From: a plasmid
Sequence record: NZ_CP143948.1
Strand: one strand, 5' to 3'
DNA length: 64,000 bases
Positions within the stretch are counted from its first letter, which is position 1. Each line of letters starts with the position of its first letter. The notes beneath the pieces are model-generated. The model did no database searches, had not been told where the DNA came from, and saw only the letters and a program-made list of their open reading frames with translations. Made by a program: the position numbers and the translations under genes. Positions 34,671 to 50,092 of this stretch are shown here, piece after piece.

Positions 34671-35414
34671 TTAGGCATTTTTAACTATTTCAACAGCAAT
34701 ATCCGGATAATTTGTGATAATTGCATCTGCTTCTGCCTTGACAAGTGCCTTCATCTCATGCTTTTCGTTTACAGTCCATACATGAGCTCTAAGTCCTCTT
34801 CCGTGCGCCTTGTCAATGTAGTTTTCATCCTGCATATGGTAGGTTGCCGGATGAAGCGCATCCACATGAAGCTCGCTTGCATACTCTGCCGGATTTACTA
34901 TAATGTCAGAAAAAAGCAGACCGCACCTCATATCGGGGCAAAGCTTTTTCATGCGCACAATCGACTCATGATTGAATGATGAGCACCAGATTCTGTCAAG
35001 CATATCATACTCTTCCACGAGCGCCAGTACCTTTTTCTCCAGATTTTTGTACTGTACGATACCGTTTTTAAGCTCGATATTTATGGTCATCTCTGTGTTT
35101 TTGAGCAGGTCAAACACCTCATCGAGTGTTGGAATGCGAGTCTTCTTGTCATAGGACGGCATGTGCTTTGACACATTGAGGCGCTTTAACTCCTTGAGTG
35201 TATAGTCCTTTACAAAGCCTTTCTCACCACTCACTCTGTCCACGGTCTCATCGTGTATGACCACAAGCTCTCCATCCTTTGTGAGCTGCACATCAAGCTC
35301 CACGCCGTCAGCCTTCATCTTTTCTGCCTTCTTGAATGCCTCAAGTGTGTTCTCCGGTGCATATCCGGATGCTCCTCTGTGTGCCCAGACCTTTGTTCCC
35401 TCTGTGTTTATCAT
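34671..35414 (-). CDS. Glycerophosphodiester phosphodiesterase (GlpQ/UgpQ family)
   Basis: HRG..G.APENT and E.D...T.DG..V..HD motifs of the GDPD TIM barrel. Confidence 0.85.
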   Translation of the reverse strand: MINTEGTKVWAHRGASGYAPENTLEAFKKAEKMKADGVELDVQLTKDGELVVIHDETVDRVSGEKGFVKDYTLKELKRLNVSKHMPSYDKKTRIPTLDEVFDLLKNTEMTINIELKNGIVQYKNLEKKVLALVEEYDMLDRIWCSSFNHESIVRMKKLCPDMRCGLLFSDIIVNPAEYASELHVDALHPATYHMQDENYIDKAHGRGLRAHVWTVNEKHEMKALVKAEADAIITNYPDIAVEIVKNA

Positions 35415-35444
35415 GCTTTAAGCCTTCTTTCGTTACTTTTTATT

Positions 35445-36839
35445 TTAGTTATTTTCATGCCTCGGTGCATCATATCTGTCTGCAAACCTTAAAAATACAA
35501 ATCCCACTGCAAAGAATATTGCCATAGTTGCAACCGCCACATTTATCGTGCCGCCCGCAAGCTTTACTGCTGCTATGACAAGCGAGCCTAAAAACGAAGC
35601 TCCCTTTGCAAAAATATCATAGATTCCGAAATACTCTCCCGAGTTCTCAGGAGGAATAATCTTTGAAAAATATGAGCGTGACAGCGCCTGCAATGAGCCC
35701 TGGAAGCAGCCCACACCAAATGCCATGATTCCAAAGCCAATCAGATCATGCAGTGTAAGTGCATATAGACAGACTGCAAAATATCCCGCAATGCAGACAT
35801 ACAAAAGCGTTGTAGTTTTGTATGTCTGTGACAGTCTTCCAAAAACAAGTGAACCGATGCATGCCACTATCTGTGTAAAAAGTAAAAACACTACCTGTCC
35901 CACTGAATCGAGCTTTAAATCAGTTCCTATGTTTATACAATTATCTATTATAGTACCTACACCATCTATGTAAAGGAAAAAAGCAACCAAAAACAGTCCT
36001 ACTTTTTTATCTTTTGTAGCTATTTTTTTGATTGTTCCAAAAATCTGTGCAAATGCGTCAGCTATAAGTCTTAGGACTCCCGGATTTTTGTTTGTTTTGT
36101 TTTTCTCTTTGATATTGTCTCTTATAAATGCATCATTTTCAAAATTCTTATGAATATCTTTGTCTGCTGCATCCGATACATAATTCACCTGTTTATAGCT
36201 CTTAAACAATGGAATTGTAACAACAAACCACCAGATTCCTGTAACCGCAAAGCCTATTATCATCGACAGGCGGTTTGATATATATCCAAGCATATCAGGT
36301 CCACAGATATACGCTGCAAGCGAAACGAGAAACGGCACACATGAGCCCAGATATCCCCAGGCATAGCCGTAGGAGGACACCTCGTCCATTCTATCCTTTG
36401 TCGTCACATCGACAAGCATCGAGTCATAAAACACCAGCGATGCATTGTAAAATATCTTTGTAAGCACATATATAACAAGAAACAGTACCCACGTAGGTGT
36501 AAAACCGTTAAGTATACATGCCGACACTCCTACAACTACTGTCGTTGAAAAAATGGCCTTTTTGATACGCATATGGTCAGCTATCGCGCCACATACAGGT
36601 CCGATAAGTGCTGATACAACCGTCATCACAGCTATCGCCACCGCATAATACGCAGTCGCCCTGTCAGATGAAATCTGCCCTACACCATCTCCCACGGCAA
36701 GGCTTTTGTACCATATCGGTATGAGTGCACACGCAAGCAGTGTGTATGCGGAATTTCCCACGTCATATAATACCCATGAGAGCTCCTTTGACGAGAGCTT
36801 TTTGCTTTTCTTTTGTGTATTGTCTTCTTTTGATTTCAT
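35445..36839 (-). CDS. MFS transporter, UMF1 (Atg22-like) family
   Basis: 464 aa; the W.LYD.GNSAY N-terminal signature and about 12 TM helices. Confidence 0.7.
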   Translation of the reverse strand: MKSKEDNTQKKSKKLSSKELSWVLYDVGNSAYTLLACALIPIWYKSLAVGDGVGQISSDRATAYYAVAIAVMTVVSALIGPVCGAIADHMRIKKAIFSTTVVVGVSACILNGFTPTWVLFLVIYVLTKIFYNASLVFYDSMLVDVTTKDRMDEVSSYGYAWGYLGSCVPFLVSLAAYICGPDMLGYISNRLSMIIGFAVTGIWWFVVTIPLFKSYKQVNYVSDAADKDIHKNFENDAFIRDNIKEKNKTNKNPGVLRLIADAFAQIFGTIKKIATKDKKVGLFLVAFFLYIDGVGTIIDNCINIGTDLKLDSVGQVVFLLFTQIVACIGSLVFGRLSQTYKTTTLLYVCIAGYFAVCLYALTLHDLIGFGIMAFGVGCFQGSLQALSRSYFSKIIPPENSGEYFGIYDIFAKGASFLGSLVIAAVKLAGGTINVAVATMAIFFAVGFVFLRFADRYDAPRHENN

Positions 36840-36945: not shown

Positions 36946-37410
36946 TTATGCCAGCGACTTTCTCGCAATATCCACATAATGCATGGCGTTTCGATGATTC
37001 TCCTCTATCTCCTCAGCACTCAGTGACCTGACTACCTTTGCCGGAGAGCCAAATGCAAGGCTTCCGTCAGGAATCTCGGTGCCCTGAGTGACAAGAGCGC
37101 CCGCACCTATTATGCAGTTTTTACCAATCCTTGCTCCATTTAACACGATGGCACCCATGCCGATGAGTGTATTATCACCTATAGTACACCCGTGAACAAT
37201 TGCGCTGTGTCCTATTGTCACATTATCACCGATTCTGACACTGTGGCTTAAGTCCACATGTACCACTGCATTGTCCTGTATATTCGAATTTCTGCCTATT
37301 TCTATCGGTTCTGAATCGCCTCTTACAGTTGCATTATACCATACGCTTGCTCCGTCAGCCATTGTCACCTGACCCTTAACAACGGCACCTTCTGCTATAT
37401 AATATGCCAT
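36946..37410 (-). CDS. Gamma-carbonic-anhydrase-family hexapeptide-repeat protein (YrdA/PaaY/CaiE-like)
   Basis: 154 aa left-handed beta-helix with His ligands (HVD..H...IG.N...GH.AIVHG). Start ATG at 37410 with a GGAGGGA RBS embedded in the last codons of the upstream SMC-like gene (2-nt intergenic gap). Confidence 0.8.
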   Translation of the reverse strand: MAYYIAEGAVVKGQVTMADGASVWYNATVRGDSEPIEIGRNSNIQDNAVVHVDLSHSVRIGDNVTIGHSAIVHGCTIGDNTLIGMGAIVLNGARIGKNCIIGAGALVTQGTEIPDGSLAFGSPAKVVRSLSAEEIEENHRNAMHYVDIARKSLA

Positions 37411-37412
37411 AT

Positions 37413-40400
37413 CTATCCCTCCATCAATTTCAGATAATCGCCCTTGTCTATATGCATCATAGAAATCTGATTATTATGCCGCCTGAAGCCATAGACACAG
37501 TCCACATTTCGGATAAGCGACTGCAGACGTTCATCCGGTACACAGACAATCAGCTGCAAGTCCATCTTCCTTGCATACTTGAGACACACCGCACTTCGCT
37601 CCTGATCCATCTTGGAAAATGCCTCATCCAGAAGCACCAGCTTAATCTTTGAATCACGATTGCTCTGCTGCATATAAAGCATCGCAAAGCCCGCAAGAAG
37701 CGCAACGTACTTAGGGTTCTGTCCCTCGCCGCCCGAATCACGTCCTGCCATGTCATCTACAAAGTTTTCCCTGATGACACGGCCGTTTTCGTCCGTAACC
37801 TGCTCATACATGCTGAATGACAGATAATTGCGGTAATCCGCATACTGCTCCATTTCCTTGCGCTTCTGCATTCGCAGATGCTCATCCTCGTCCCTTGGCG
37901 GCATGAACTTGTCTGTCAAAAGTTTAATTTTCTGCTCATATTTCTTATAAAAATCATCCTCACCAAAGCTTATCTGTCCAGCTATTCCGCCATTATCCGG
38001 ATTTTTACTGTCCAGTTCTTCCGCCATAAGCATATCATAGAACTGACCGTTTTCGTTCTTTGCCGGCTCTATCTTAATCTGATAGGTACTGTCTGAGAAA
38101 TTAGTCTCCCTAAGAAGCCTGTTTATCTCATAGGCATGGCGCTTTGCAGCCTTGATATCACCATGAATTGTACCGATGACATTCTCTCTGAGACTTTTGT
38201 AAATCACCTTGCACTGCTCCTCAAACTCACTCTCATATTCCGGCTCATAATCCTTCTCGTACTTCTCCAGCAGCTCCTCATATGCCTTATTTGACTTCTC
38301 GGCTCCGCTGAACTGACCTGACGGAAACTCCTTTATATACCTGTAGCGGGCAGTCTGCAACGTCTCCACACACGACTGCTGCCTGCCACCATTTCCGTCT
38401 GCGCCTTGCAGCTCAATAAGCTTCTCACGCTGTTTGCTCTTGACCGATGCTCCTGAGCTATGCTGCAGCATATCCTGAACCTGCTTCTCAAGCTCCTCTC
38501 TGGCAACATAGCCCTGTAACATATCTTCCAGCTGTGCTCTTCGCTGTTCGTTTGCACCTATGATTTTCTCATGCTGGCTTATCTTTTCATTTATCTGCTG
38601 CTGATTCAGTGAAAAAGCGCTCTTAAGTGCATCGATGTTTTTCTCAAGAAGCCTCTTTTTCTCCTTTAGCTCCTTGTACTGCCCATTCTCCATTGTCCTA
38701 ATAATCTCTTCGAGCTCATTTTTCTGCGAATTAACTGCTTTAAGCTCATCTGACGCCTCAGAAAGGCCCACAAAATACTCCGGCTCCCCCTTTAAGCACT
38801 CAAAATCTCTCTGTGCCTTGAGACTTGAAATAATACCCATAAGCTGTATCTGGTCCTTCTCAAGCCTCTCCACATCTGCCTCATACTCAGCAAGTCTTGC
38901 CTTGGATACCCTGCCTCCGATGCAGGCATTTGTAGTATAATCGCGCTTCTTCAGATGTCTGAAAATAAAGTTGCTGTATGAGTAGCAGTCCGGTGTAACT
39001 CCATCTCGTACCTGCTCAAGCTCGTCAACACTCCGGCACTTTATAATATGTCCCAGATATCTTTTCAGGCAGACATCTACATACTTTTCCTTTGTATCCA
39101 CCGCCTCATAAAGCGAACCATCCATGGCCTTTGGTTCACTGTCCATGATAGCCTTGGAATTGATGAGGTCAACATCCTCAAACTGCTTCATATCCCTGAA
39201 AATAACAGCAGCAGTATGCGCATAACGCGGCTCTGTGATAAGTGAGAACTTGAGCCTGCCCATACGTCCTTCTATGGCATTCTTCCATTCCTCGTCCTGT
39301 ACGTCAAACATATCCGCAAATACCTGTACCTTCACAGGCTCGCCAAATCTATCACTTAAGTCTCTCTGCAGCGTAGCTCTTGCCGAACGCAGGCTCTCAC
39401 TGTATGACTTGCGGTTGTTCTTCATATCATCGACCAGACGTTTTTTCTCTTTAAGCTCTTTTGTTATCTCATTTTTCTGCGAATTATTGTCCTCGAGCTC
39501 ATCCTCGATATCCTTCTTTATAGACTCAAGCTTTAGATGAAGCTCCTGACATTTTGCCTCTGTGACGTCACCATCCACAATCTCTTCAATAAGGTTTAAA
39601 ACTGCATTGCTCACATAATCTGTGATGACCTCATCCTCATCCCAGGCCTTTAGTCCGTTTGTGATTTTAATCCACTGACGGCTGTTGTCGGTAAGCATGA
39701 GACTTCTCTTCTCAAGCTCCCTAAGCTGATCCTTTTTGCTTCCTAAGTCGCTCGATTTCAAATCTGCACATACCTGGATATACTCCTGCTGCAGATTCGC
39801 CTGCTGCCCGGCTATATCATCTGCCTTTTCTGAAAGCCTGCCCTGTTCTTCTTCGATACGCTTTTTATCATCCTCAGCTGCCTGAATCCTTGCACGCATA
39901 TCCTCGATATCTATGCACCTGATCATTGTCTCTGCCATGACAATATCGCTCTGGATATTTACCAGTTCCTGCCCTGACTCCTTTATTTCCTTAAGAAGCT
40001 CAATACGCTTGCGCATATCCTCTATTTTTTCCCTGATTTGTCTGTATGCATCAAGCTGCTCACTGATAGTCTCTATCGTGCCCGAGTCACTCTTTGGAAA
40101 CATATAATCGCGTATAAACTGGCCTGTTCCATTTGTCATTCTGAGTGCAATAGCACTTTTTTCCATTGTGATAAAACGATTCGGGTCAATATATCCTAAA
40201 ATCACATCATATAATGTGCCAAGGTATGCCTCCTTCGATGCGTAAATACGGTTTACATCCCCTCTGGCGCGTCTGTCAGCTGACTGTGAGCGAGTATTTA
40301 CAAGCTTTTTAATATCATTATTTGAATAGCAAAAGCCGTCCGCTGTCATATATGAAGGCTCCGGCATCCTGCCCGAATGACTGAAGTACACAAATCTCTT

Positions 40401-40817
40401 AATCTCAGAATCGTTTTTTCGTACCTCAAATGCTATTCCTATACATGTAAACGTATGACTGCCTGTATCCTCTATCTCAAGCGCTATGACCGAACAAAAA
40501 TCACAGTCGCCACGATTTGCGGAGCCATCCTTCTGCTCACCCCTCAAATAGCTCAGAACACTTCTCCTGTTTTTTGCATCATCTGCAGCCTTGTTCAAAA
40601 ACGTGGGGCTGAAGCTGCCGTAGAGGATTACCTGAATCGCATCCATGACGGTTGATTTTCCCGAGCCACTCTTACCACTGAACAAATTGACATACTCATT
40701 AAAATGCAAAACCTTGTGATTTATTCCGCCCCAGTTGTTTAGACACATTCTGGTAAATATCTTCTTAGACTGACTCAATTGGTAACTCCTCCATTTCACT
40801 GTTCTTGGCAAATTCAT
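37413..40817 (-). CDS. SMC-like ABC-type ATPase, JetC/MksB-like (Wadjet/condensin family)
   Basis: 1134 aa; N-terminal Walker A FSGKSGSGKST, a long E/K/Q-rich coiled-coil middle, DSGGEG signature-like motif and C-terminal Walker B LVLLDEAF. The real start may be TTG at 40778 (GGAGGAG RBS), which would give a 14-nt overlap with the upstream gene. Confidence 0.65.
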   Translation of the reverse strand: MNLPRTVKWRSYQLSQSKKIFTRMCLNNWGGINHKVLHFNEYVNLFSGKSGSGKSTVMDAIQVILYGSFSPTFLNKAADDAKNRRSVLSYLRGEQKDGSANRGDCDFCSVIALEIEDTGSHTFTCIGIAFEVRKNDSEIKRFVYFSHSGRMPEPSYMTADGFCYSNNDIKKLVNTRSQSADRRARGDVNRIYASKEAYLGTLYDVILGYIDPNRFITMEKSAIALRMTNGTGQFIRDYMFPKSDSGTIETISEQLDAYRQIREKIEDMRKRIELLKEIKESGQELVNIQSDIVMAETMIRCIDIEDMRARIQAAEDDKKRIEEEQGRLSEKADDIAGQQANLQQEYIQVCADLKSSDLGSKKDQLRELEKRSLMLTDNSRQWIKITNGLKAWDEDEVITDYVSNAVLNLIEEIVDGDVTEAKCQELHLKLESIKKDIEDELEDNNSQKNEITKELKEKKRLVDDMKNNRKSYSESLRSARATLQRDLSDRFGEPVKVQVFADMFDVQDEEWKNAIEGRMGRLKFSLITEPRYAHTAAVIFRDMKQFEDVDLINSKAIMDSEPKAMDGSLYEAVDTKEKYVDVCLKRYLGHIIKCRSVDELEQVRDGVTPDCYSYSNFIFRHLKKRDYTTNACIGGRVSKARLAEYEADVERLEKDQIQLMGIISSLKAQRDFECLKGEPEYFVGLSEASDELKAVNSQKNELEEIIRTMENGQYKELKEKKRLLEKNIDALKSAFSLNQQQINEKISQHEKIIGANEQRRAQLEDMLQGYVAREELEKQVQDMLQHSSGASVKSKQREKLIELQGADGNGGRQQSCVETLQTARYRYIKEFPSGQFSGAEKSNKAYEELLEKYEKDYEPEYESEFEEQCKVIYKSLRENVIGTIHGDIKAAKRHAYEINRLLRETNFSDSTYQIKIEPAKNENGQFYDMLMAEELDSKNPDNGGIAGQISFGEDDFYKKYEQKIKLLTDKFMPPRDEDEHLRMQKRKEMEQYADYRNYLSFSMYEQVTDENGRVIRENFVDDMAGRDSGGEGQNPKYVALLAGFAMLYMQQSNRDSKIKLVLLDEAFSKMDQERSAVCLKYARKMDLQLIVCVPDERLQSLIRNVDCVYGFRRHNNQISMMHIDKGDYLKLMEG

Positions 40818-41490
40818 GGGTATGGTTTACAGAACTGCCTTCTGTATTCAATCCGGCAGCTTCAAGTGTTGCAGCCGACTCGTTATCATACTTAATCAGC
40901 TCCACCTCATCACTGTACATGCGCACAAGCTCATTTATATCCATGGCTGAGCAGAATATATTTACTGTGCCATAAATATAAATCGGTGTGTTGTCCTCCA
41001 GGTTTGCAATAGCCCCCGGCAGTTCAATCATCTGATGTGTTTTCATAAGCAAAAGAGCGTCTGACCATTCCTGATTAGTGAGCTTTCTGGTAATCAGATT
41101 GGTATTTCTGCCATACTCACGAATCTCCGCCAGATTCGTTGTTGTCGCATTAAGCCCCTCGCCCATGATTTTATCCCTGTATATCATCTTCATTATAATG
41201 ACAATCCTTGCAGTAAGAAGAGTCATCTTCTCGAGCATGACACCATCACCCGTTATCCTGAAAAGATGCTCCTGCTGGTCATGAACCAGCTCACAGTCAA
41301 GCACAGCCAGATAATCAGAGATAAACTCTCTGTTTCTAAGACACACCTGATACCTTGGATTGTCTCTTTGAATCAATGTAACGGGGTCACACTTCATTTG
41401 CAAAATACAGGTCTGCCTCAACAGATCCTGAATAGTTTTTCTAATATTTTCTGCCTCATTTGGCGAAACATTCTCCATATATTCAAACAT
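40765..41490 (-). CDS. JetB/MksE-like subunit (DUF4194-type, inferred from size and position)
   Basis: 241 aa acidic protein sandwiched between the kleisin-like and SMC-like genes, matching the conserved mksF-mksE-mksB / jetA-jetB-jetC order. No independent motif. Confidence 0.45.
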   Translation of the reverse strand: MFEYMENVSPNEAENIRKTIQDLLRQTCILQMKCDPVTLIQRDNPRYQVCLRNREFISDYLAVLDCELVHDQQEHLFRITGDGVMLEKMTLLTARIVIIMKMIYRDKIMGEGLNATTTNLAEIREYGRNTNLITRKLTNQEWSDALLLMKTHQMIELPGAIANLEDNTPIYIYGTVNIFCSAMDINELVRMYSDEVELIKYDNESAATLEAAGLNTEGSSVNHTHEFAKNSEMEELPIESV

Positions 41491-41505
41491 ACATTGCTCT
41501 CTTTT

Positions 41506-43041
41506 CTATGCTTCTCGTTTAGAGTCCGATTTGGATATTACAAGCCTTGAGTAGCTTACACCATCACTCTTTGTTATCTCTCCATCCAGACTCACCGTAT
41601 CCTCACCCATGCGCTCATTGGTCTCCTCCTGCCATAAAAACAGAAGCTTTTCCAGATCCTCCATGGATTCTACAGTCTGTTCATCTGTCACAAACATGCC
41701 ATCACGCATATTTTTATCTCTGAAGCTTTGAAGCTCCTTTTTGGTATACAATGGCTTTGGCACAAAATCTGCCATATCATCTTCGCCTGCCGAAGCATCG
41801 TCAATAACAAACGGAACAAACTCACTTCTTCCTCTCTCTCTTCTTCCCGGAAAGCTGTCGTCCGTTACATTGTAAAACTGTCTGGTGAACTTCATTCTGT
41901 TTCGAAGAGCCCCAAGTATCTCATCTGTTTTATCACTCTTATCTATCAGGTTAATGAGCTTTACTATATTATCCTCGTCATCTGCGCCTTCCTGCAGGAT
42001 ATAGTGTATCCTTGCAAGCGCCCTCTTTGCAAAAATCGTCTTCTGCTCAATAAGCTTGTTGTACTTTCTCTCAATCAGGTCAAACTCATGCTCCACCTTA
42101 TAAACAAGCTCACTTGCCTTATCACAGTACTCCACGCTGTACTCATAGCGTTTTCTCTCAAACGTACCGGGTGTAGTCTGCGAAAGAATTCCCTCAAGCT
42201 CAGCCCTTCTGTCATCGTTCTGATTGAGGATTTTGCTTATAAGCTCCTTTACAGCCTCCTTATAACGATAAAAGCTATCCGTGGTTGTAAGGATGGCATA
42301 ACGTCTGCTATCACTGTTATTAATTTCCTTAATCAGTACCTTCTGTATACCGATAAAATCCTTCATACGTGACAGCTCATCAAAATATGCCCTCATGCCA
42401 TCCTGCATATTTGATAAAAGCTGACCAAGATTTTTTGACGTATACAACGCATTTTTCAGAATATCATTATTTTTTTCCGGGTCTGAAAAATATGTAAAAA
42501 GCGCACTGTAAACAGCCAAAATACTCTCACGCTCCCTGCTGTCATCATCCACAAGCAGCTTTTTAAATAGCTCAGCATACATCTGGCTGTACTGAGGAAA
42601 TGCAATCACATATGTGTTGAGCTTTTCATCAAAATCACTCCTGATCCAGCCCCAGTTTATAAGCCTGCCCAATATAGCTGATGGTGTCAGGGTGTATGCG
42701 AAGCTGGTCTGGTCATATACATCGACAATTTCCAGATCAGAATTATAATCATCATGATTATCCATGCTGTCACTATCTTTATTACTCTCATCTTCATTAT
42801 AATCAGTCTGCCATACAATGCCTGTTTTTGATATGGTATCCGCTATGATTATCTGACACTCCTCACGTGTCAGTCCCAGTGATGCATAGACCTCGTTATT
42901 CTCCTCATATAACGCAACAACTATCTGCATGTATGCATCCATATTTTTTGTGCGGAATAAGCTATAAAATTCTTTTGGTATTCTATCTTTTAATGTCATA
43001 CTCATATAATAACATATCCCCACGTTTTTCGCCATATACAT
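41506..43041 (-). CDS. JetA/MksF-like kleisin-type subunit (inferred)
   Basis: 511 aa acidic, largely helical protein directly upstream of the 241-aa and SMC-like genes. The start is uncertain (M1, M3 or M13; no strong RBS). Confidence 0.45.
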   Translation of the reverse strand: MYMAKNVGICYYMSMTLKDRIPKEFYSLFRTKNMDAYMQIVVALYEENNEVYASLGLTREECQIIIADTISKTGIVWQTDYNEDESNKDSDSMDNHDDYNSDLEIVDVYDQTSFAYTLTPSAILGRLINWGWIRSDFDEKLNTYVIAFPQYSQMYAELFKKLLVDDDSRERESILAVYSALFTYFSDPEKNNDILKNALYTSKNLGQLLSNMQDGMRAYFDELSRMKDFIGIQKVLIKEINNSDSRRYAILTTTDSFYRYKEAVKELISKILNQNDDRRAELEGILSQTTPGTFERKRYEYSVEYCDKASELVYKVEHEFDLIERKYNKLIEQKTIFAKRALARIHYILQEGADDEDNIVKLINLIDKSDKTDEILGALRNRMKFTRQFYNVTDDSFPGRRERGRSEFVPFVIDDASAGEDDMADFVPKPLYTKKELQSFRDKNMRDGMFVTDEQTVESMEDLEKLLFLWQEETNERMGEDTVSLDGEITKSDGVSYSRLVISKSDSKREA

Positions 43042-43161: not shown

Positions 43162-44505
43162 TTACTGCTCAGCAACTCTCAGATGACGTATAAGCTCATT
43201 TAAGCTCTCTGCCTCACTGCTCATCTCCTGACTTGCAGCTGCACACTCCTGTGAAGAAGCTGAGTTAGTCTGAACTACATCGTTAATCTGCTCTACGCCA
43301 TTATTAATCTGCTTGATAGCATCTGTCTGTGTCTCAAGTGTCTCTGCGATTCCATTAACCTCATCTGTAATAGTCTTGGAATTGCCTGCAACCTCCTCAA
43401 GCTGTGATGCTGTCTTGCCTGCAATAACCATTCCTTTTTCAACAGCCTTGACTGAAGACTCGATAAGAGCTGCTGACTCCTTAGCAGCATTTGCACTCTG
43501 CTCAGCAAGTACAGTAACCTGATCTGCTACAACTGCAAAGCCTTTTCCTGCCTCTCCTGCTCTGGCTGCCTCGATAGAAGCATTGAGTGCAAGAAGGTTT
43601 GTCTGTGATGCAATCTCATTGATTGTTGCGATGATTTTACCAATCTCCTGAGATGCCTCATTTATCTCATTCATGGATGTAACCATCTCATGCATCTGTC
43701 CGTTGCTATCCATAATCTCAGTTCCGAGTCCATCAACCTTCTGGCTGATTTCCTTTGCATGCTCGGCATTCTCAGCTACCTGATCCGCTACAGAAGCAAG
43801 TGTGGCTGTAAGCTCCTCCACAACGGCGGCCTGGTCTGTTGCGCCCTGCGCCAGATCACTTGAGCTGGCAGCTACCTGCCCAGCACCGTTTGAAACCTCA
43901 TTTGCCGCTCTCTGGATACCACTTACTGTATCTGACATGCTCTCCTCGAAAGCAACAATTGATTCTTTAATTCCTACAAAATCGCCTTTCCACTCCACCT
44001 GTGGCTTAAAGTTGAAATTGCCATCTGCAAACTGTCTCATAGTCTGGTCGATATCATCAATATATGTGCCAAGTGTCCTGATAGACTTTCTAAGGTCATG
44101 TGCAAGTTTGCCAACCTCATCATCTGAATGATACTCCAGATTGCTGTGAAGATTTCCATTAACAAGCTCTCCTGCCACTACCTCAATCTGCTGTAATGGC
44201 TCAAGCACAGAATCAATAACCTGGTCACTGATTTTTTTTGCAATCATTGTGGCTACAATTCCAACTATTATTACATTAGCCAGTCCTATAATCAGGAAAA
44301 ACGTAGCAACTGTTCCCGACTCGGCACCAAAGATATTAGCCTTTGCACCAAAATAAACCAATAAAACTGCAACAATTGATATGCCTCCCGATACAAGCAG
44401 CATATCCAATACTTTCTTATAGCCATATTTCAATCTCTGCTGAAGTGGCATTTCCATTATTTTGCTTTTAGCTTCCTCACCCATATGTAATTCTCCCTTT
44501 CTCAT
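43162..44505 (-). CDS. Methyl-accepting chemotaxis protein (TM sensor, HAMP, MCP signalling domain)
   Basis: Two TM helices, HAMP, and the highly conserved LLALNASIEAARAGEAGKGFAVVADQV signalling motif. The start may be an internal Met. Confidence 0.85.
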   Translation of the reverse strand: MRKGELHMGEEAKSKIMEMPLQQRLKYGYKKVLDMLLVSGGISIVAVLLVYFGAKANIFGAESGTVATFFLIIGLANVIIVGIVATMIAKKISDQVIDSVLEPLQQIEVVAGELVNGNLHSNLEYHSDDEVGKLAHDLRKSIRTLGTYIDDIDQTMRQFADGNFNFKPQVEWKGDFVGIKESIVAFEESMSDTVSGIQRAANEVSNGAGQVAASSSDLAQGATDQAAVVEELTATLASVADQVAENAEHAKEISQKVDGLGTEIMDSNGQMHEMVTSMNEINEASQEIGKIIATINEIASQTNLLALNASIEAARAGEAGKGFAVVADQVTVLAEQSANAAKESAALIESSVKAVEKGMVIAGKTASQLEEVAGNSKTITDEVNGIAETLETQTDAIKQINNGVEQINDVVQTNSASSQECAAASQEMSSEAESLNELIRHLRVAEQ

Positions 44506-44646
44506 TTAGGTTTCGTTCTATACAGTAAGATTATTATATCATTACCATAGTACTATTTCAATGATAATTTGACAATATTCGTCATTTTTGACATATCGCC
44601 TAATTTCGGAAATGATTTATAGTCAAATACACTAATTTCCCGCTTA

Positions 44647-44949
44647 TTACACCTCGAAATCCATACATGCCCTATTTGCAGTAAATGGTCTCACCTTGGT
44701 ATCCGCCACTGCAACATGCTTAGGATTCTTTGCATACGCTGCAAGTGCATCAGCATCCTCAAATGTAGTATCAAGCATCACATCTACGGTAGATGTCGGA
44801 AGATAATCTGTGCGAACTGAAATGTCGATCATTCCCGGAATCTGTCCCTTAAGTCCCTCTAAGCCTTCCTTTATGCCGGCACGTATTTCAGCCTTCTGTG
44901 CCTCTGTGTACTCATCCTTGAGTGTCCATAAAATAATGTGTTTAACCAT
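44647..44949 (-). CDS. Dabb-family stress-responsive dimeric alpha/beta-barrel protein
   Basis: 100 aa; MVKHIILWTLKDE-type Dabb signature. Confidence 0.65.
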   Translation of the reverse strand: MVKHIILWTLKDEYTEAQKAEIRAGIKEGLEGLKGQIPGMIDISVRTDYLPTSTVDVMLDTTFEDADALAAYAKNPKHVAVADTKVRPFTANRACMDFEV

Positions 44950-45205
44950 TGTGTTCCTCCTGAGTTTATCAGGTCTTTCGACCAGTCCAAACTATAACAT
45001 AATAATTTCTTTAATGTTCATCTCTTCTATAGTTCAAAACCATAAGGTGAATGGAGACCTTTGTATGAATAATATGCCATTCAGACCGCTATGTCAATTA
45101 CATATTCTACCCCATCGCTTCGTTTCCTACCCCATTTTGCACCTTTTGTGGCAGAAAACATATTAGGTACAGTTTAGAATACATTTATTATTCAAATCAT
45201 TTAAT

Positions 45206-45730
45206 TTACATTTCTCTTTTAGCTTCTACCTTTGTTGCATATTTCCACGTCTTTCCGCAATCTTTTGAATAGATACTTTCCCAACTAAATGTATCCTTCT
45301 CAATATTTTTGAAATTCCATTGCCATATAGTTGTATCATTCGCATCTTTATTAATCCCTGTTTGTATAATATCATTCTCCAATTCTTCGGCGATTAACCT
45401 ATCAACACTCCATTTGGAAACGTACACTATATTCCACTTTTTTGAATTATCTATCATTGGAACTCGTATTGTTGTTCCATAATCTCCGTATAAAGTATCT
45501 TCCTCTGTCCATTCTCCTCTTTTGGGACAAATGAAGACATCTTGAATTCCATACCCATCCATGACATATGAAAAAAGCCACTCACCTTCTTTTGTATCTT
45601 CAATCTTCCCCTCTTCATCATATGTAGTCATTGTAAACGACCAATTTCCAACAAATCTACTATACAATGATAAATCTGTGTTATTATTCGCATTATTGCT
45701 TCCTAATGCTTCTAAAAATTCATTTTTCAT
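45206..45730 (-). CDS. Hypothetical protein (AT-rich, Trp-rich, 174 aa)
   Basis: ORF with AT-rich codon usage; no motif recognised. Confidence 0.4.
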   Translation of the reverse strand: MKNEFLEALGSNNANNNTDLSLYSRFVGNWSFTMTTYDEEGKIEDTKEGEWLFSYVMDGYGIQDVFICPKRGEWTEEDTLYGDYGTTIRVPMIDNSKKWNIVYVSKWSVDRLIAEELENDIIQTGINKDANDTTIWQWNFKNIEKDTFSWESIYSKDCGKTWKYATKVEAKREM

Positions 45731-45763
45731 TAGCGTACACTCTCCTCCCGATAAACATGTTGC

Positions 45764-46285
45764 TTATTTATCATTTGTAGTAATTGAATAAACAACCAAA
45801 TCCCTATATTCCCCTGTGTTTTTATCAATTCTTCTTTTTCTTAAAACCCCATCCTTAATAAAACCTACCTTTTCAAGCAGATTAAGCGAAGGTTTATTAT
45901 CTATATTACATTTTGCCTCAATGAGATACAGTCTATCTTTTGACAAGTATTCTGAAATCATCTTTTTTACAGCTTCAGTGCCATAACCTTTACCATGCCA
46001 CTTTTCACCAATAACATAACCAATTTCACCAATCCTTAATTCTTGATATGGTATATCAAAAGATATATATCCTATACATGCACCACTTTCTTTTTCAACA
46101 ATTACCCATGCATTCGTATTTTTCACCATAGCATTTACAAAAGAATTCATCTGATCCATATTCATTGGATATCCCATTATAAAATCACCCAAATGCTCAT
46201 CTGTCCCCCATCCCTCGAAGCATATTGAAGCATCTTCATTCACAAAATGGCGGATGTATAATCGCTCTGTTTCTATTTTCATCAT
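45764..46285 (-). CDS. GNAT family N-acetyltransferase (RimJ/RimL-like)
   Basis: ERLYIRHF...WHGKGYGTEA acetyl-CoA binding motif. Confidence 0.8.
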   Translation of the reverse strand: MMKIETERLYIRHFVNEDASICFEGWGTDEHLGDFIMGYPMNMDQMNSFVNAMVKNTNAWVIVEKESGACIGYISFDIPYQELRIGEIGYVIGEKWHGKGYGTEAVKKMISEYLSKDRLYLIEAKCNIDNKPSLNLLEKVGFIKDGVLRKRRIDKNTGEYRDLVVYSITTNDK

Positions 46286-46429
46286 AAAAATCCTTTTCCA
46301 TCTACATTATGACTTGGCACCACTACATCAATTAATCCTACTATAACATACTTTTAAACTGTAAAAAAGGGTTTCCGAGAAATCTCGGAAACCCTTGAAT
46401 TTACTAGATATTTACACTACTAACAAGTA

Positions 46430-46484
46430 ATTACTCGATAACTGTAGCAACACGTCCAGAACCTACTGTACGTCCACCCTCACG
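46430..46484 (-). repeat. 55-bp copy of the tuf 3' end (last 17 codons plus stop), direct repeat of 50184-50238 with one synonymous mismatch
   Basis: ATTACTCGATAACTGTAGCAACACGTCCAGA(A/T)CCTACTGTACGTCCACCCTCACG is present at both sites. The relic copy forms a 22-codon mini-ORF (46431-46499) with its own GAGGT RBS. Confidence 0.85.
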
Positions 46485-46704
46485 ATACTTTAATATCATT
46501 TTACCTCATATTTTTTATGGTTTTCTCTCCAAAATACAGTGAAAAACGACTGATTTGTACTATTTATTTTTATTTGCCTGATTTCTTGGCACCGTTTTGG
46601 CACCGGAAGCCTCAGTCAAAAAGCTTCTCTTCTGCTGTTTATACTCTTCTCTATCAGCTTTAATTTATAGCCAAAAAGCAGCCAGTTTTTCATATAAATA
46701 ATTT

Positions 46705-47985
46705 CTAATAACTTTTATCGCCTTTCTTCAAAGGAGAAAACGTAATCTTATTTGCCAAAAGAAAAAGAATTATTATTACAATACCAAATCCCACAAAAAG
46801 TGAACTTGTATCAACAACAGTAACTTTGTATATAATACTAATCACAAAAGATACCACTGGCGCGCATGCGTATGTAAGTGAAAATCGAATTGCAGAAACA
46901 CGTCCTATATATTCTTTAGTAACTTCTTTTACAAATTTCACTTGTACATAAGTAATCATTAATCCCAATGCTGCACCAATTATTATCGAACCGATTAGCA
47001 ACAGTAATTTTTGAGTTATAGGATTTGCAATATATTTTGAAACAAATGCAATAAAAACATAGTATACACCTAAAACAATTCCACAAAATGTAACAAGTGT
47101 ATTATTTTTTTTCTCCTCTTTCATTTTTGCAAAAGTCAATGATCCCAAAATAGTACCAATAGTTACGCTTACACTTAGTAATGAAACAATTTTGGCATCT
47201 CCACTAAACATTTCTCTTGCAATCGGGGCGAGCAGTGCATCAAATGGAACCACTGCTGAATTAATTAGAATACATAAAAAACATAGTTTTAATAGCTTCT
47301 TATGGTCAAATACATAACTAAATCCATCTCTAAGCGAAATTAAATATTCTCTGCCAATTATTCGGTTTGTCTTCTTTTCTTCTTGAACAGAAAATTCTAT
47401 TTTTACTATAAGCAACGCTGATATTAAAAATATCAAAGCATCTATCGCTAAAGAAATACCTATTCCAAATGAACTAATCACTATGCCTGACAAGCCAGTT
47501 CCAACTAATACTGCTATTTTGGTACAAGACACATTGACACTTACACCTTTATCATAATGTTCATTAGGAAGTACATGCTGAATAACTGCTACCCCTGCTG
47601 GCATATGAAATGCTTCTATTAATGAAATGGATATTGTCATAAAAACCAATATTAATGGTGAAAGCATGTTTTGTGTATATACATATAATATATACAAAAC
47701 TAACAGAACTCGAGCTATATCTGAAAGTACTAACACTTTCTTTTTATTCATATTCTCGACTAATGGACCTATAAATGGTTGAATAATTACAGAAGTAGCT
47801 TGATTAATACCAAAAATAATCGCAGACCACCCTGCACTATTTGTAAGTAAATATACCAACCATGTAAAAAGTATTGTATCTAATGAATCACCACAGCGGT
47901 TAATAATATTAGAAGTCAGCAGATAAACATAATTGTGGTTATGATATAACTCATGTTTATTCATATTTGTTACCTCTCTAATCAT
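46705..47985 (-). CDS. MFS transporter (putative exporter of the adjacent RiPP-like product)
   Basis: 426 aa, about 12 TM; 4-nt ATGA overlap with the upstream radical-SAM gene. Confidence 0.7.
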   Translation of the reverse strand: MIREVTNMNKHELYHNHNYVYLLTSNIINRCGDSLDTILFTWLVYLLTNSAGWSAIIFGINQATSVIIQPFIGPLVENMNKKKVLVLSDIARVLLVLYILYVYTQNMLSPLILVFMTISISLIEAFHMPAGVAVIQHVLPNEHYDKGVSVNVSCTKIAVLVGTGLSGIVISSFGIGISLAIDALIFLISALLIVKIEFSVQEEKKTNRIIGREYLISLRDGFSYVFDHKKLLKLCFLCILINSAVVPFDALLAPIAREMFSGDAKIVSLLSVSVTIGTILGSLTFAKMKEEKKNNTLVTFCGIVLGVYYVFIAFVSKYIANPITQKLLLLIGSIIIGAALGLMITYVQVKFVKEVTKEYIGRVSAIRFSLTYACAPVVSFVISIIYKVTVVDTSSLFVGFGIVIIILFLLANKITFSPLKKGDKSY

Positions 47986-49136
47986 AATTTAGATTGTTTA
48001 ATTTCGCAAGCTATCTTATAAAGATCCTGATGTTTTAAAGCCGCTGCTTTTTCTATAACATTATCAATTTCTGATATATCATTAAGTGATTCCAAATATT
48101 TTTTCCATTTTTTCATTTCAACATTATATGCACAGTATCTATTTTCACTTTCAAATGAGCCGTTAATGCAATAACGACTATTACTACATCCTCCTAAGCA
48201 TCGTTCTGTATAACGACATTCTCTGCAAAATCCTTTTAACTTACTACTATCAAAATTTCTATTCCACTTAAAAGAGTCCGGACTTTCCCAAATCGACTTT
48301 AAAGATTTTTCACGAATATTTCCCGCTACTAATGTTTTATCTCTAATAGAAGTACAAGCAACAATATCTCCATTATGCAGAATACCAATTACATGCTTTC
48401 CTGCTCCACAACCTGTCCAAGACCAATTATCATTAAGAAAATTCTCATTTACTTTTATATCTTTATTGCTATAATAACCTATGCAATCTGCCAAAACAAT
48501 TAACAACTTACCTCCAATTTTATTATATGCAAAATCAATAATAGAAAGAATATCTTGAGGTTCTATAAGCCATTCTGGGCGTTTTGCAAAATTCCCCATT
48601 GGTAATGCAATCTGTAACTGCCAACTATTAACTCCCAAATCACTTAATAATTGATATAGTTCTTCCAATTCACATATATTTTCTTTATTTATTGAAGTTA
48701 TTACTGATGTCGAAATATTATTTTTTCTTAATTCTTTCAATGCTTTAATACTTTTATTGAATGATCCCGATCTCCGTATAAAATCGTGAGTTTTTTCAAG
48801 ACCATCAATACTTAAACAGACACTTCTAATTCCTGATGTTATCGCATTATGAATAAAGTTTTCATCAATCAACCAACCATTTGTAATAATACTTGTTATT
48901 ATGCCATTATCTACTAATCTTTTCGCAATAATATGCCAGTCACTACGTGTCGTAGGTTCCCCTCCAGATAATGTAATAACTTTTAATCCCAAATCTTTTA
49001 ATTGGTCACACACCTCAAGAGCTTCTGATGTATTCAACTCATCGGGTAGCGCTTCTGCACAACTTGAACCGCAATGTTTACAACGCATATTACAACCCAT
49101 TGTTATTTCCCATACAGCTGTAGTTAATTTATTCAT
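47982..49136 (-). CDS. Radical SAM / SPASM-domain peptide maturase
   Basis: CNMRCKHCG (C.3C.2C) radical-SAM cluster at residues 15-22 with no N-terminal RRE, and a C-terminal Cys-rich SPASM region (CRECRYTERCLGGCSNSRYC...CAYN). Confidence 0.85.
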   Translation of the reverse strand: MNKLTTAVWEITMGCNMRCKHCGSSCAEALPDELNTSEALEVCDQLKDLGLKVITLSGGEPTTRSDWHIIAKRLVDNGIITSIITNGWLIDENFIHNAITSGIRSVCLSIDGLEKTHDFIRRSGSFNKSIKALKELRKNNISTSVITSINKENICELEELYQLLSDLGVNSWQLQIALPMGNFAKRPEWLIEPQDILSIIDFAYNKIGGKLLIVLADCIGYYSNKDIKVNENFLNDNWSWTGCGAGKHVIGILHNGDIVACTSIRDKTLVAGNIREKSLKSIWESPDSFKWNRNFDSSKLKGFCRECRYTERCLGGCSNSRYCINGSFESENRYCAYNVEMKKWKKYLESLNDISEIDNVIEKAAALKHQDLYKIACEIKQSKL

Positions 49137-49217
49137 ATATTCTCTCCTATAATCCTTTTTAAATAAAAAAGACCTACTCTATATTTCTTTTTACATAGAG
49201 CAAGTCTTTTCTACAAA

Positions 49218-49325
49218 CTACATTCTCACACCTGTTCCGTACATAACTGGTCCAAATAAGTTCTTAGAGGTTTTTAATTCAGAAATCTTTACAAACTCCA
49301 AGCTCAATTCTTCAAGATTAAACAT
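49218..49325 (-). CDS. RiPP precursor peptide candidate (35 aa: MFNLEELSLEFVKISELKTSKNLFGPVMYGTGVRM)
   Basis: ATG at 49325 is preceded by GGGAGGTG; amphipathic leader-like N-terminus. It lies 81 nt upstream of the rSAM gene on the same strand. The track ORF (68 aa) reads through from an unlikely upstream start. Confidence 0.5.
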   Translation of the reverse strand: MFNLEELSLEFVKISELKTSKNLFGPVMYGTGVRM

Positions 49326-49482
49326 TTTTATCCACCTCCCGTTTATTGAATTTATCTTAAGAATACATCTCTTATTTTCAAATGTCAAGTTATTTTCATT
49401 ATTTTTCCCAAATTTCGAGTTCAAATTCTCGTTTTATTTGTAACATATTTTCCATTTTCTACGCATACATCAGATCTCTTAA

Positions 49483-49926
49483 CCACTTATAAATGTCCGT
49501 AAAATTGCAAAAGCAACTGGAATCAGTGCTACAACCTTATATTCAATCATTCAAAAAGATTCCAATATTCGATTTGATTTTGCTTTAAGACTTGCAAACG
49601 AATTGCAAATTGATGTGAATGAGATATGTTCTGCCAGTCCATTTTCTGACACAATTAAGGAAGAAGAGATTTATCCTACACTTCCAGACGGTTTGAACGG
49701 AGCCTTAGACGCAAGTCGTGTAAAGACTTACTTAAAAAATTCTATGTATCCGTTGATGTATCTTTTTGGCAAAAATAGTATGCCTGATGTAGATAATCTA
49801 CTTACATCATTCTATCAGCTTGATGATGAAGCCAGACAGGAAGTTGTAGAAACAATCCGTCTGAAACTGCAATATCATCGAGATCCGAAACGTGCTGAAC
49901 AGATCAAGCAGATTAAAGGTTGGTAA
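49483..49926 (+). pseudogene. XRE-family HTH regulator, apparently 5'-truncated (no in-frame start upstream of helix 2)
   Basis: In-frame translation from 49483 gives NVRKIAKATGISATTLYSIIQKDSNIRFDFALRLANELQIDVNEI (HTH helices 2-5). A TAA sits at 49480 and all three frames are closed just upstream; the first possible start is TTG 49603, downstream of the HTH. Confidence 0.45.
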
Positions 49927-49931
49927 AAAAT

Positions 49932-49972
49932 CACTCCTGTGAATGGCAAACATTCGCAGGAGTTTCTTTTTG
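49932..49972 (+). terminator. Rho-independent terminator after the XRE gene
   Basis: ACTCCTG...CAGGAGT stem followed by TTCTTTTT. Confidence 0.5.
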
Positions 49973-50092
49973 GGCACCGTTTTGGCACCACTGGTCTTAT
50001 TTTTCAATTTTAAATTTATCTGTATTTTATCTTGCTGATAAATATTTCGCTATTTCTCTACTTATAATTTTTCAAATCATTCTCTCTTTAAG

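What the first reader, a model, noticed from the sequence alone, without database searches (positions are those of the whole stretch)
36946..43041. Wadjet/condensin-like jetABC (mksFEB) module without a JetD nuclease, translationally coupled to a hexapeptide-repeat protein
Three co-directional, tightly packed genes encode a 511-aa acidic protein, a 241-aa acidic protein and a 1134-aa SMC-like ATPase. The ATPase has a Walker A FSGKSGSGKST at its N-terminus, a long coiled-coil-like middle, an SGGE-like signature and a Walker B LVLLDEAF at its C-terminus. These sizes and this order are what is expected for JetA/MksF, JetB/MksE and JetC/MksB. No Toprim/DUF2220 (JetD/MksG) gene is present on either side of the cluster. 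Wadjet plasmid restriction, as established, needs JetD for DNA cleavage. Upstream of the module is an MCP chemoreceptor. Downstream, the SMC gene stop (37413-37415) is separated by only 2 nt from the start of a 154-aa gamma-carbonic-anhydrase-type left-handed beta-helix protein. That protein's GGAGGGA RBS lies inside the last codons of the SMC gene, so the two are almost certainly co-translated. An SMC loop-extruder paired with a hexapeptide-repeat (acyltransferase/gamma-CA fold) protein in place of the nuclease is not an arrangement I can place in described Wadjet types I-III or in MksBEFG. It could be a nuclease-less condensin, or a Wadjet variant with a different effector.
Basis: partly seen in the sequence, partly recalled or inferred. 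Interest (0 to 1): 0.85.

Follow-up and report, generated by a model that had tools for sequence, protein, structure and literature searches.

The report
Nuclease-less Wadjet JetABC in Agathobacter rectalis
This gut bacterium keeps the three motor genes of a plasmid-cutting Wadjet defence system under strong selection but has lost the cutting enzyme, as have many of its relatives, and the small enzyme-like gene right behind them looks like an ordinary neighbour, not a new weapon.

Summary
On the minus strand, jetA, jetB and jetC match type I Wadjet models at 750, 378 and 1487 bits. A gamma-carbonic-anhydrase-family hexapeptide gene starts 2 nt after the jetC stop. No JetD or JetD remnant lies anywhere in the 64 kb window.

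The organism is Agathobacter rectalis. The locus is chromosomal and lies between the tuf and S10 ribosomal operons.

JetD absence is not a strain oddity. Among species-level relatives (JetC 54-98% identical), 32 have an intact JetD (23 just after jetC, 9 before jetA), two have a decayed one, about 34 have none, and the rest are cut by contig ends. A JetC tree implies about 10 losses. The window sits in a 16-locus clade that lacks JetD in every locus with enough flank. Its sister is Roseburia faecis, which has jetDABC. JetD-less jetABC is under strong purifying selection (dN/dS 0.03-0.12) with all ATPase motifs intact.

The hexapeptide pairing is not supported as a replacement effector. Immediate adjacency occurs only in Agathobacter rectalis-group species and in one jetDABC locus that still has JetD. 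Orthologues exist without jet genes.

Best reading: a JetD-independent, MksBEF-like SMC complex, a new member of a known kind. JetD supplied in trans is not excluded.

The parts
41506..43005 (-). jetA (kleisin, MukF/MksF-like). 499 aa from the ATG at 43005; the open frame extends to 43041 (511 aa).
   Evidence: PADLOC JetA1 749.5 bits. Pfam PF18982 JetA 221.5 bits. pI 4.71. Gene callers on identical contigs use the 499 aa form.
40765..41490 (-). jetB (KITE, MukE/MksE-like), 241 aa. Carries a roughly 45 aa acidic C-terminal tail that most relatives lack.
   Evidence: PADLOC JetB1 378.1 bits. Pfam DUF4194 30.1 bits, below its 32.7 cut-off. Tail seen in the alignment.
37413..40778 (-). jetC (SMC-like ABC ATPase, MukB/MksB-like). 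1121 aa from the TTG at 40778, overlapping jetB by 14 nt; the open frame extends to the ATG at 40817 (1134 aa).
   Evidence: PADLOC JetC1 1486.6 bits. Walker A, signature and Walker B motifs invariant across 22 relatives. GGAGGAG ribosome-binding site before the TTG. The 90% cluster is named Agathobacter rectalis, WP_173857805.1.
36946..37410 (-). Gamma-carbonic-anhydrase-family left-handed beta-helix (hexapeptide) gene, 154 aa. It starts 2 nt after the jetC stop and its GGAGG lies inside jetC. It is a neighbour that is probably co-transcribed, and is not shown to be part of the system.
   Evidence: Pfam Hexapep 72.4 bits. NCBIfam gamma carbonic anhydrase 171.7 bits, below the 250 cut-off. PDB 4n27 172 bits and 9rmq 169 bits, with the three His ligand positions aligned. 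Junction sequence.
43162..44505 (-). Methyl-accepting chemotaxis protein gene upstream of jetA. Context only. A strong sigma-70-like site lies at 44561-44533.
   Evidence: Pfam MCPsignal 142 bits and HAMP 31.5 bits. Promoter scan, 11 of 12 matches.
34671..36839 (-). MFS/ATG22-type transporter (35445-36839) and glycerophosphodiester phosphodiesterase (34671-35414). This is the housekeeping pair with which the hexapeptide gene travels in related genomes.
   Evidence: Pfam ATG22 157 bits and GDPD 185.7 bits. GDPD and the hexapeptide gene are linked in L015 and L025.

Best explanation
The locus is a vertically inherited, chromosomal, type I Wadjet-derived jetABC operon of Agathobacter rectalis that lost its JetD Toprim nuclease in an ancestor of the Agathobacter/Roseburia clade.

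Shown: the kleisin (JetA), KITE (JetB) and SMC ATPase (JetC) are intact, all catalytic motifs are conserved, and the genes are under strong purifying selection.

Inferred: the three proteins still assemble into an ATP-driven, DNA-loop-extruding SMC complex that cannot cleave DNA. That complex would serve a JetD-independent role of the MksBEF type, either chromosome or replisome organisation or non-destructive handling of small circular DNA.

The hexapeptide protein is a gamma-carbonic-anhydrase-family housekeeping gene of the same neighbourhood. A local rearrangement in the Agathobacter rectalis group placed it directly behind jetC, where it is probably co-transcribed and translationally coupled. 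It is not the system's effector.
For: Identity: PADLOC JetA1, JetB1 and JetC1 at 750, 378 and 1487 bits.

No JetD: none in the 64 kb window by tblastn or by unfiltered profile search. None in any locus of the window's clade that has enough flank.

Fixed in the species: every contig shown that reaches upstream of the hexapeptide gene has jetC (jetABC where the contig reaches far enough) immediately upstream; 24 contigs were read, 9 places shown and 16 similar ones not shown.

Recurrent loss: in 80 species-level loci plus metagenome loci, JetD lies after jetC (23 intact), before jetA (9), or is absent with at least 1.5 kb of flank on both sides (about 34). The JetC tree gives an ancestral JetD-present state and 10 parsimony changes.

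Direct traces of loss: L052 is jetABCD-mgsA, whereas L048, L050, L054, L055 and others are jetABC-mgsA. L081 has a frameshifted JetD and L097 a 40 aa remnant. R. faecis strains carry a JetD with an in-frame deletion of residues 315-381, which removes the Toprim HWGDMDYGG motif.

Selection after loss: dN/dS is 0.03-0.12 for jetA, jetB and jetC between JetD-less loci. Examples are window vs L024 (dS 1.1, ratio 0.10), L013 vs L053 (0.026) and L022 vs L023 (0.05). JetD-bearing pairs give 0.04-0.09.

Conserved sites: only 2 of 82 (JetB), 2 of 156 (JetA) and 3 of 443 (JetC) columns that are at least 90% conserved in JetD-bearing systems change in JetD-less ones.

JetD in trans is disfavoured: a JetD profile search of 5.8 billion proteins lists only one large cluster, R. 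faecis with 3142 members. The A. rectalis JetC cluster has 14875 members.

[quoted passage not shown] The M. smegmatis MksB operon contains only MksEF partners, and MksB tracks the replisome (PMC11329512).

Hexapeptide as neighbour.
Against: Only 64 kb of this genome could be read, so a JetD encoded elsewhere is not excluded. JetD position is variable in relatives; in L041 it lies 4.9 kb from jetA.

The pattern of site conservation in JetA, JetB and JetC does not differ between JetD-less and JetD-bearing lineages (entropy profiles correlate at r 0.81-0.87). A long-unused JetD docking surface might have been expected to relax.

No functional data exist. In tested type I systems, plasmid restriction needs JetD (PMC10586767), so the cellular role proposed here rests on analogy only.

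The 2-nt coupling of jetC to the hexapeptide gene is conserved across Agathobacter species that are 82% identical in JetC. A second, divergent hexapeptide gene follows jetC in L101.
Confidence: 0.6

Rival explanations
1. A complete Wadjet system with JetD supplied in trans. A jetD gene elsewhere in the A. rectalis chromosome joins JetABC, and the system still restricts circular plasmids by cleavage.
For: JetD is not fixed in position in this family. It lies after jetC in 23 loci and before jetA in 9, and 4.9 kb away in L041. JetA, JetB and JetC show no relaxed constraint at any conserved site or region in JetD-less lineages. Only 64 kb of the genome was available.
Against: Apart from L041, every intact JetD found is within about 100 nt of jetABC. 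No JetD cluster approaches A. rectalis abundance in the listed top 120 of 1113 JetD hits. Precise deletions, a frameshifted copy, a 40 aa remnant and a motif-deleted allele show JetD decaying next to intact jetABC, not relocating.
Confidence: 0.15
2. A non-functional leftover. jetABC is a defence system disabled by JetD loss and is on its way to decay.
For: JetD loss abolishes restriction in tested type I systems (PMC10586767). Some relatives have stop codons in jetC or jetA (L068, L073, L082), so decay of the motor genes does occur in the family.
Against: dN/dS is 0.03-0.12 across a clade that is JetD-less wherever flanks allow a call, with synonymous divergence above 1. All ATPase motifs are invariant. 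The open frames are intact in every contig of the species examined. Operon structure and translational overlaps are retained.
Confidence: 0.1
3. The gamma-carbonic-anhydrase-like hexapeptide protein is a new accessory subunit or effector of the SMC complex and replaces JetD.
For: The 2-nt gap, with the ribosome-binding site inside jetC, is conserved in Agathobacter species that are 82% identical in JetC. A second, divergent hexapeptide gene (56% identical) lies 21 nt after jetC in L101. The simple scan found no terminator-like site between jetC and the hexapeptide gene.
Against: L101 also has JetD, so the gene is not a replacement. At least 8 loci of the same JetD-less clade have no hexapeptide gene within 8-10 kb. 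In L015 and L025 it follows GDPD. Orthologues 67-68% identical sit in unrelated contexts. The family has more than 7000 homologues of normal length, and the nearest solved relatives are gamma carbonic anhydrases. There is no PADLOC hit.
Confidence: 0.06

Closest known systems
Type I Wadjet / JetABCD (MksBEFG, EptABCD), e.g. Bacillus cereus Q1, E. coli GF4-3, Corynebacterium glutamicum
   Same: JetA, JetB and JetC are orthologous, with best PADLOC models JetA1, JetB1 and JetC1. Gene order is A-B-C with overlapping or near-abutting genes. SMC ATPase motifs are intact. Relatives 54-73% identical in JetC carry a canonical JetD1 with Toprim E and DxD motifs.
   Different: There is no JetD in the operon or within 64 kb, so the defining DNA-cleavage step cannot be carried out by this locus. 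The locus lies in a core ribosomal-operon region, not a defence island.
Nuclease-less MksBEF of Pseudomonas aeruginosa and Mycolicibacterium smegmatis
   Same: A three-gene kleisin-KITE-SMC operon without MksG/JetD. The literature regards it as derived from JetABCD by JetD loss, with a role in chromosome organisation or replisome positioning (PMC10586767, PMC11329512).
   Different: It belongs to a different sequence lineage: Pfam MksE scores 18 bits against a cut-off of 27, and MukB_N scores 22.5 against 23. The loss is much more recent, because sister species still have JetD. No functional data exist.
MukBEF of Enterobacteria
   Same: Same architecture: kleisin MukF, KITE MukE and SMC MukB. 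It is a nuclease-free chromosomal condensin thought to descend from a Wadjet-like ancestor (PMC10586767).
   Different: Only remote sequence similarity. MukBEF replaces Smc-ScpAB, whereas Lachnospiraceae are expected to keep Smc-ScpAB (general knowledge, not checked here).
Gamma-class carbonic anhydrase family (CamH/YrdA/PaaY/CaiE-type hexapeptide proteins)
   Same: The 154 aa protein aligns over its full length with solved gamma carbonic anhydrases and 'hexapeptide transferase' proteins (4n27 at 172 bits, 9rmq at 169 bits). The His-x17-His-x4-His ligand pattern is present.
   Different: It is below the NCBIfam equivalog cut-offs (171.7 against 250). It lacks the first 15 or so residues of the solved proteins, as do its Lachnospiraceae orthologues. 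Enzymatic activity is unknown.

Membership tests
Wadjet type I (JetABCD) | JetA kleisin (PF18982/DUF3375-type) | tested here: met
   PADLOC JetA1 749.5 bits; Pfam JetA 221.5 bits against a cut-off of 26.2.
Wadjet type I (JetABCD) | JetB KITE subunit (DUF4194) | tested here: met
   PADLOC JetB1 378.1 bits over 208 of 212 model positions. Pfam DUF4194 is only 30.1 bits against a cut-off of 32.7.
Wadjet type I (JetABCD) | JetC SMC-like ATPase with Walker A, signature and Walker B motifs | tested here: met
   PADLOC JetC1 1486.6 bits over the full length. The motifs are invariant in 22 relatives.
Wadjet type I (JetABCD) | JetD Toprim nuclease (DUF2220/DUF3322) encoded with jetABC | tested here: not met
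   No hit in the window by tblastn or unfiltered profile search (best E 3.7). The positive control L029 scores 613 bits. The rest of the genome could not be searched.
Wadjet type I (JetABCD) | ATP-dependent cleavage or restriction of small circular DNA | not testable with these tools
   Needs a plasmid transformation or loss assay, or in vitro cleavage.
MksBEF-type nuclease-less condensin | Kleisin-KITE-SMC operon lacking MksG/JetD and maintained by selection | tested here: met
   Three intact genes and no JetD. dN/dS is 0.03-0.12 within the JetD-less clade.
MksBEF-type nuclease-less condensin | Sequence membership in the Pfam MksE and MukB families | tested here: not met
   MksE PF21980 scores 18 bits against 27. 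MukB_N PF04310 scores 22.5 against 23.
MksBEF-type nuclease-less condensin | Role in chromosome organisation or segregation | not testable with these tools
   Needs Hi-C, ChIP-seq or imaging of a jetC mutant.
Gamma-class carbonic anhydrase family (hexapeptide protein) | Left-handed beta-helix hexapeptide repeats with the three His metal ligands | tested here: met
   Hexapep 72.4 bits. Full-length alignment to 4n27 and 9rmq, with VHVD and IGHSAIVHG matching the ligand positions.
Gamma-class carbonic anhydrase family (hexapeptide protein) | Reaches an NCBIfam equivalog cut-off (gamma carbonic anhydrase, PaaY or CaiE) | tested here: not met
   171.7 against 250, 120 against 319.6, and 94.1 against 305.

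The most novel reading that the evidence does not exclude
JetABC without JetD is an active, nuclease-free SMC machine that gut Lachnospiraceae have repeatedly selected for a new cellular role. In Agathobacter it has acquired the co-translated gamma-carbonic-anhydrase-like protein as a genuine accessory subunit. The independent jetC-hexapeptide juxtaposition in L101 would then be a second sign of that partnership.
Probability: 0.06. Interest if true: 0.8.

Novelty: new member of a known kind. Interest (0 to 1): 0.4.

Why it matters
Reviews propose that chromosomal condensins such as MksBEF and MukBEF descend from plasmid-restricting Wadjet systems by loss of the nuclease. That proposal rests on ancient, highly diverged examples.

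In this family the same transition is seen recently and repeatedly. Sister species differ only in whether JetD is present, deleted, frameshifted or deprived of its catalytic motif. The motor genes stay equally constrained throughout.

These are natural matched pairs. A. rectalis against R. faecis, or L052 against L050 and L054, could be used to ask what a Wadjet motor does once it can no longer cut. They could also test whether adding JetD back restores restriction.

There is a practical point too. A. rectalis and Roseburia are abundant butyrate producers that are hard to manipulate genetically. A 'Wadjet' call in these genomes should not be assumed to be a plasmid barrier.

Tried and rejected
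1. Truncation hypothesis. I asked whether the hexapeptide gene is a 5'-truncated gene fused to jetC by a deletion that also removed jetD, because it aligns to positions 16-162 of a 172-position model. Rejected: Lachnospiraceae orthologues far from any jet gene have the same short N-terminus and lengths of 154-160 aa.

2. Mapping the published JetD docking residue (E. coli JetC F919, preprint 10.1101/2023.11.03.565488) onto this JetC. This failed. Neither the protein, a 22-sequence profile, nor the C-terminal head alone finds any solved JetC by sequence. The hits were only Rad50 and ABC transporters.

3. Looking for relaxed constraint at a putative JetD interface. I compared conserved columns and sliding-window entropy. 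No region stands out, so the result is inconclusive.

4. Naming the organisms behind JetD clusters to see whether any is A. rectalis. The clusters carry no names.

5. P0001, a 1212 aa 'JetC' that is 99% identical. It is an internal duplication of residues 232-324 and probably an assembly artefact.

6. Literature searches for Wadjet in Agathobacter or Roseburia, or for JetD-less systems. They found only the remark about P. aeruginosa MksBEF.

7. A further scan of metagenome contigs with JetD was considered. I did not run it, because abundant R. faecis contigs would fill the 80-locus limit.

Full report
**Observation.**
- PADLOC models identify them as type I Wadjet JetA1 (749.5 bits), JetB1 (378.1 bits) and JetC1 (1486.6 bits, full length). 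The fourth protein hits no defence model.
- Pfam agrees: JetA 221.5 bits; SbcC_Walker_B and AAA_29 for JetC; DUF4194 just below its cut-off for JetB; Hexapep for the fourth protein.
- The junction reads GGAGGGA-TAG-AT-ATG.
- jetC most likely starts at the TTG at 40778, behind a GGAGGAG site, and overlaps jetB by 14 nt.
- JetA and JetB are acidic, with pI 4.7.
- The flanking genes are an MCP upstream and an MFS/ATG22 transporter plus GDPD downstream.
- No JetD exists anywhere in the 64 kb window. tblastn with three JetD queries found nothing. An unfiltered JetD profile search of the six-frame translation gave a best E of 3.7, while control loci scored 613 bits.

**Organism and setting.** The JetC 90% cluster has 14875 member sequences. 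It carries the NCBI name 'SbcC/MukB-like Walker B domain-containing protein [Agathobacter rectalis]', WP_173857805.1. The exact hexapeptide protein is listed in 184 blocks of public assemblies. Every contig shown that reaches upstream has jetC (jetABC where the contig reaches far enough) directly upstream.

The window reads rpoB-rpoC-rpsL-fusA-tuf, then a low-GC islet, then Dabb-MCP-jetABC-hexapeptide-MFS-GDPD-PPK-YbaK-TrpRS-CorA, and then the S10 operon. The locus therefore sits in the core ribosomal-operon region, not in a defence island.

**Relatives.** JetC homologues 76-77% identical in other gut Lachnospiraceae are also jetABC without jetD, in other contexts. A scan of one genome per GTDB species returned 80 loci with JetC 54-98% identical, from Agathobacter, Roseburia, Mediterraneibacter and others.

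I clustered the flanking ORFs, scored representatives, and ran tblastn over whole loci. Three states appear:
- canonical JetD1 immediately after jetC (23 intact copies, 22 of them in the ORF cluster);
- JetD1 before jetA, usually immediately (9 loci, including Roseburia faecis JCM 17581; in L041 it lies 4.9 kb away);
- no JetD, with at least 1.5 kb of sequence on both sides (about 34 loci).

The JetD proteins have the Toprim IENKANYE and HWGDMDYGG motifs.

A neighbour-joining JetC tree reconstructs JetD as ancestral, with 10 parsimony changes. The window lies in a 16-locus clade (JetC 75-100% identical) in which no locus has JetD; two of them have too little upstream flank for a firm call. Its sister is R. 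faecis, which has jetDABC.

Loss is directly visible in several places:
- L052 is jetABCD-mgsA, whereas its close relatives are jetABC-mgsA with only 4-13 nt between jetC and mgsA.
- L081 has a frameshifted JetD and L097 a 40 aa remnant.
- Many R. faecis contigs carry a JetD allele with an in-frame deletion of residues 315-381, which removes the DxD motif.

**Is JetD-less jetABC functional?** Pairwise Nei-Gojobori estimates give dN/dS of 0.03-0.12 for jetA, jetB and jetC between JetD-less loci. This includes comparisons inside the window's clade with dS near 1.1. JetD-bearing pairs give 0.04-0.09.

Walker A, signature, Walker B and hundreds of other columns are invariant across both groups. 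Only 7 of the 681 columns that are at least 90% conserved in JetD-bearing systems change in JetD-less ones. This rules out a decaying remnant for the Agathobacter clade.

It does not by itself rule out a JetD supplied in trans. Sliding-window entropy shows no region of relaxed constraint. The published docking residue could not be mapped, because no solved JetC is detectable by sequence.

Against a trans JetD, a JetD profile search of 5.8 billion proteins returned 1113 hits. Among the 120 listed, the only large cluster is R. faecis with 3142 members. Nothing comparable to the A. rectalis JetC cluster appears.

**The hexapeptide gene.** It belongs to the gamma-carbonic-anhydrase family.
- NCBIfam gives 171.7 bits, below the equivalog cut-off.
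- It aligns over its full length to solved gamma carbonic anhydrases, with the three His ligand positions present.
- It has more than 7000 homologues of similar length.

Its short N-terminus is shared by orthologues far from any jet gene, so it was not truncated by a deletion.

Direct adjacency to jetC with a 2-nt gap is confined to A. rectalis and sister Agathobacter species that are 82% identical in JetC.
- In L015 the order is jetC-GDPD-hexapeptide. In L025 it is jetC-MFS-GDPD-hexapeptide.
- In at least eight other loci of the same JetD-less clade there is no hexapeptide gene within 8-10 kb.
- Orthologues 67-68% identical sit next to unrelated genes.

One counter-observation deserves mention. 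In L101 (JetC 71% identical), a divergent hexapeptide gene (56% identical, long N-terminus) lies 21 nt after jetC. That operon also has JetD upstream, so the two proteins are not alternatives. The simple scan found no terminator-like site between jetC and the hexapeptide gene or the MFS gene. Co-transcription in Agathobacter is therefore plausible, but it says nothing about function.

**Interpretation.** The evidence favours a JetD-independent SMC complex of the MksBEF kind. [quoted passage not shown] It also reports that M. smegmatis has an MksB operon with only MksEF partners, and that MksB follows the replisome (PMC11329512).

Assembly and ATP-driven loop extrusion here are inferred from conservation. 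The cellular role is inferred by analogy only. Neither is shown.

Rivals and rough weights:
- JetD in trans: about 0.15.
- A dead remnant: about 0.1.
- The hexapeptide protein as partner or effector: about 0.06.

**Verdict.** This is a new member of a known kind, the nuclease-less Wadjet/Mks complex.

The added value is comparative. JetD has been lost about ten times within one family of gut Lachnospiraceae, while jetABC stays constrained. I found no description of this in the searchable literature. It provides matched natural pairs for testing how a defence SMC is repurposed. Interest is moderate, at 0.4.

Noticed in passing
window 44000-50000: A low-GC islet (GC 0.32-0.36 against about 0.42 around it) lies between tuf and the Dabb gene. 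It encodes a radical SAM/SPASM protein (47982-49136), an MFS_3 transporter (46705-47985), a GNAT (45764-46285) and a 174 aa protein with no Pfam hit. The sister-species locus L011 goes straight from tuf to Dabb, so this looks like a recent insertion, possibly a small peptide-modification cluster.
   Followed up: partly
window 27000-63000; L074, L076, L077, L080, L081, L083: In A. rectalis the jet locus is wedged between the str operon (rpsL-fusA-tuf) and the S10 operon, which are normally adjacent. In Mediterraneibacter relatives, jetABCD sits immediately before rplJ-rplL-rpoB. The family seems to be inherited inside the ribosomal and RNA-polymerase gene region.
   Followed up: partly
P0433, P0434 (R. 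faecis JetD cluster P0244); L029 6678-7880: Many Roseburia faecis contigs (22 and 19 contigs, up to 110 kb) carry a 333 aa JetD with an in-frame deletion of residues 315-381. This removes the invariant Toprim HWGDMDYGG motif, so it is a presumably nuclease-dead allele segregating in the sister species.
   Followed up: partly
L081 13335-14245; L097 13302-13538: JetD pseudogenes lie directly after intact jetC. L081 has JetD split over two frames, and L097 retains only the last 40 or so residues.
   Followed up: yes
L101 5000-17200: A jetD-jetA-jetB-jetC-hexapeptide array sits in a defence-island-like setting: AAA-ATPase/PDDEXK_9, MNT-HEPN pair and PDDEXK_2 upstream, Abi_2 downstream. Its hexapeptide gene is a divergent family member (56% identical, 167 aa). 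Whether this juxtaposition is independent or ancestral is unresolved.
   Followed up: partly
L048, L050, L052, L054, L055, L058, L060, L063-L065, L067: In one sub-clade the gene after the jet operon is always the housekeeping AAA+ gene mgsA/rarA. Only L052 keeps jetD between jetC and mgsA.
   Followed up: yes
window 40765-40900 (JetB residues 196-241): A. rectalis JetB has a roughly 45 aa acidic, low-complexity C-terminal tail. It is shared only with L021, L022 and L023, and most relatives end near residue 195-200.
   Followed up: no
L068, L073 (jetC); L082 (jetA): The tblastn-derived coding regions contain in-frame stop codons, which suggests that the motor genes themselves are pseudogenised in a few lineages. 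L082 still has JetD.
   Followed up: no
P0001: A 1212 aa JetC that is 99% identical to the window protein, with residues 232-324 duplicated in tandem. It occurs on two short contigs and is probably a misassembly.
   Followed up: yes
L022, L023: The JetC relatives closest to A. rectalis outside the species group (84-85% identical) come from MAGs labelled 'Acutalibacteraceae bacterium' or 'bacterium'. That family is not Lachnospiraceae, so this is either mis-binning or mislabelling, or a transfer.
   Followed up: no
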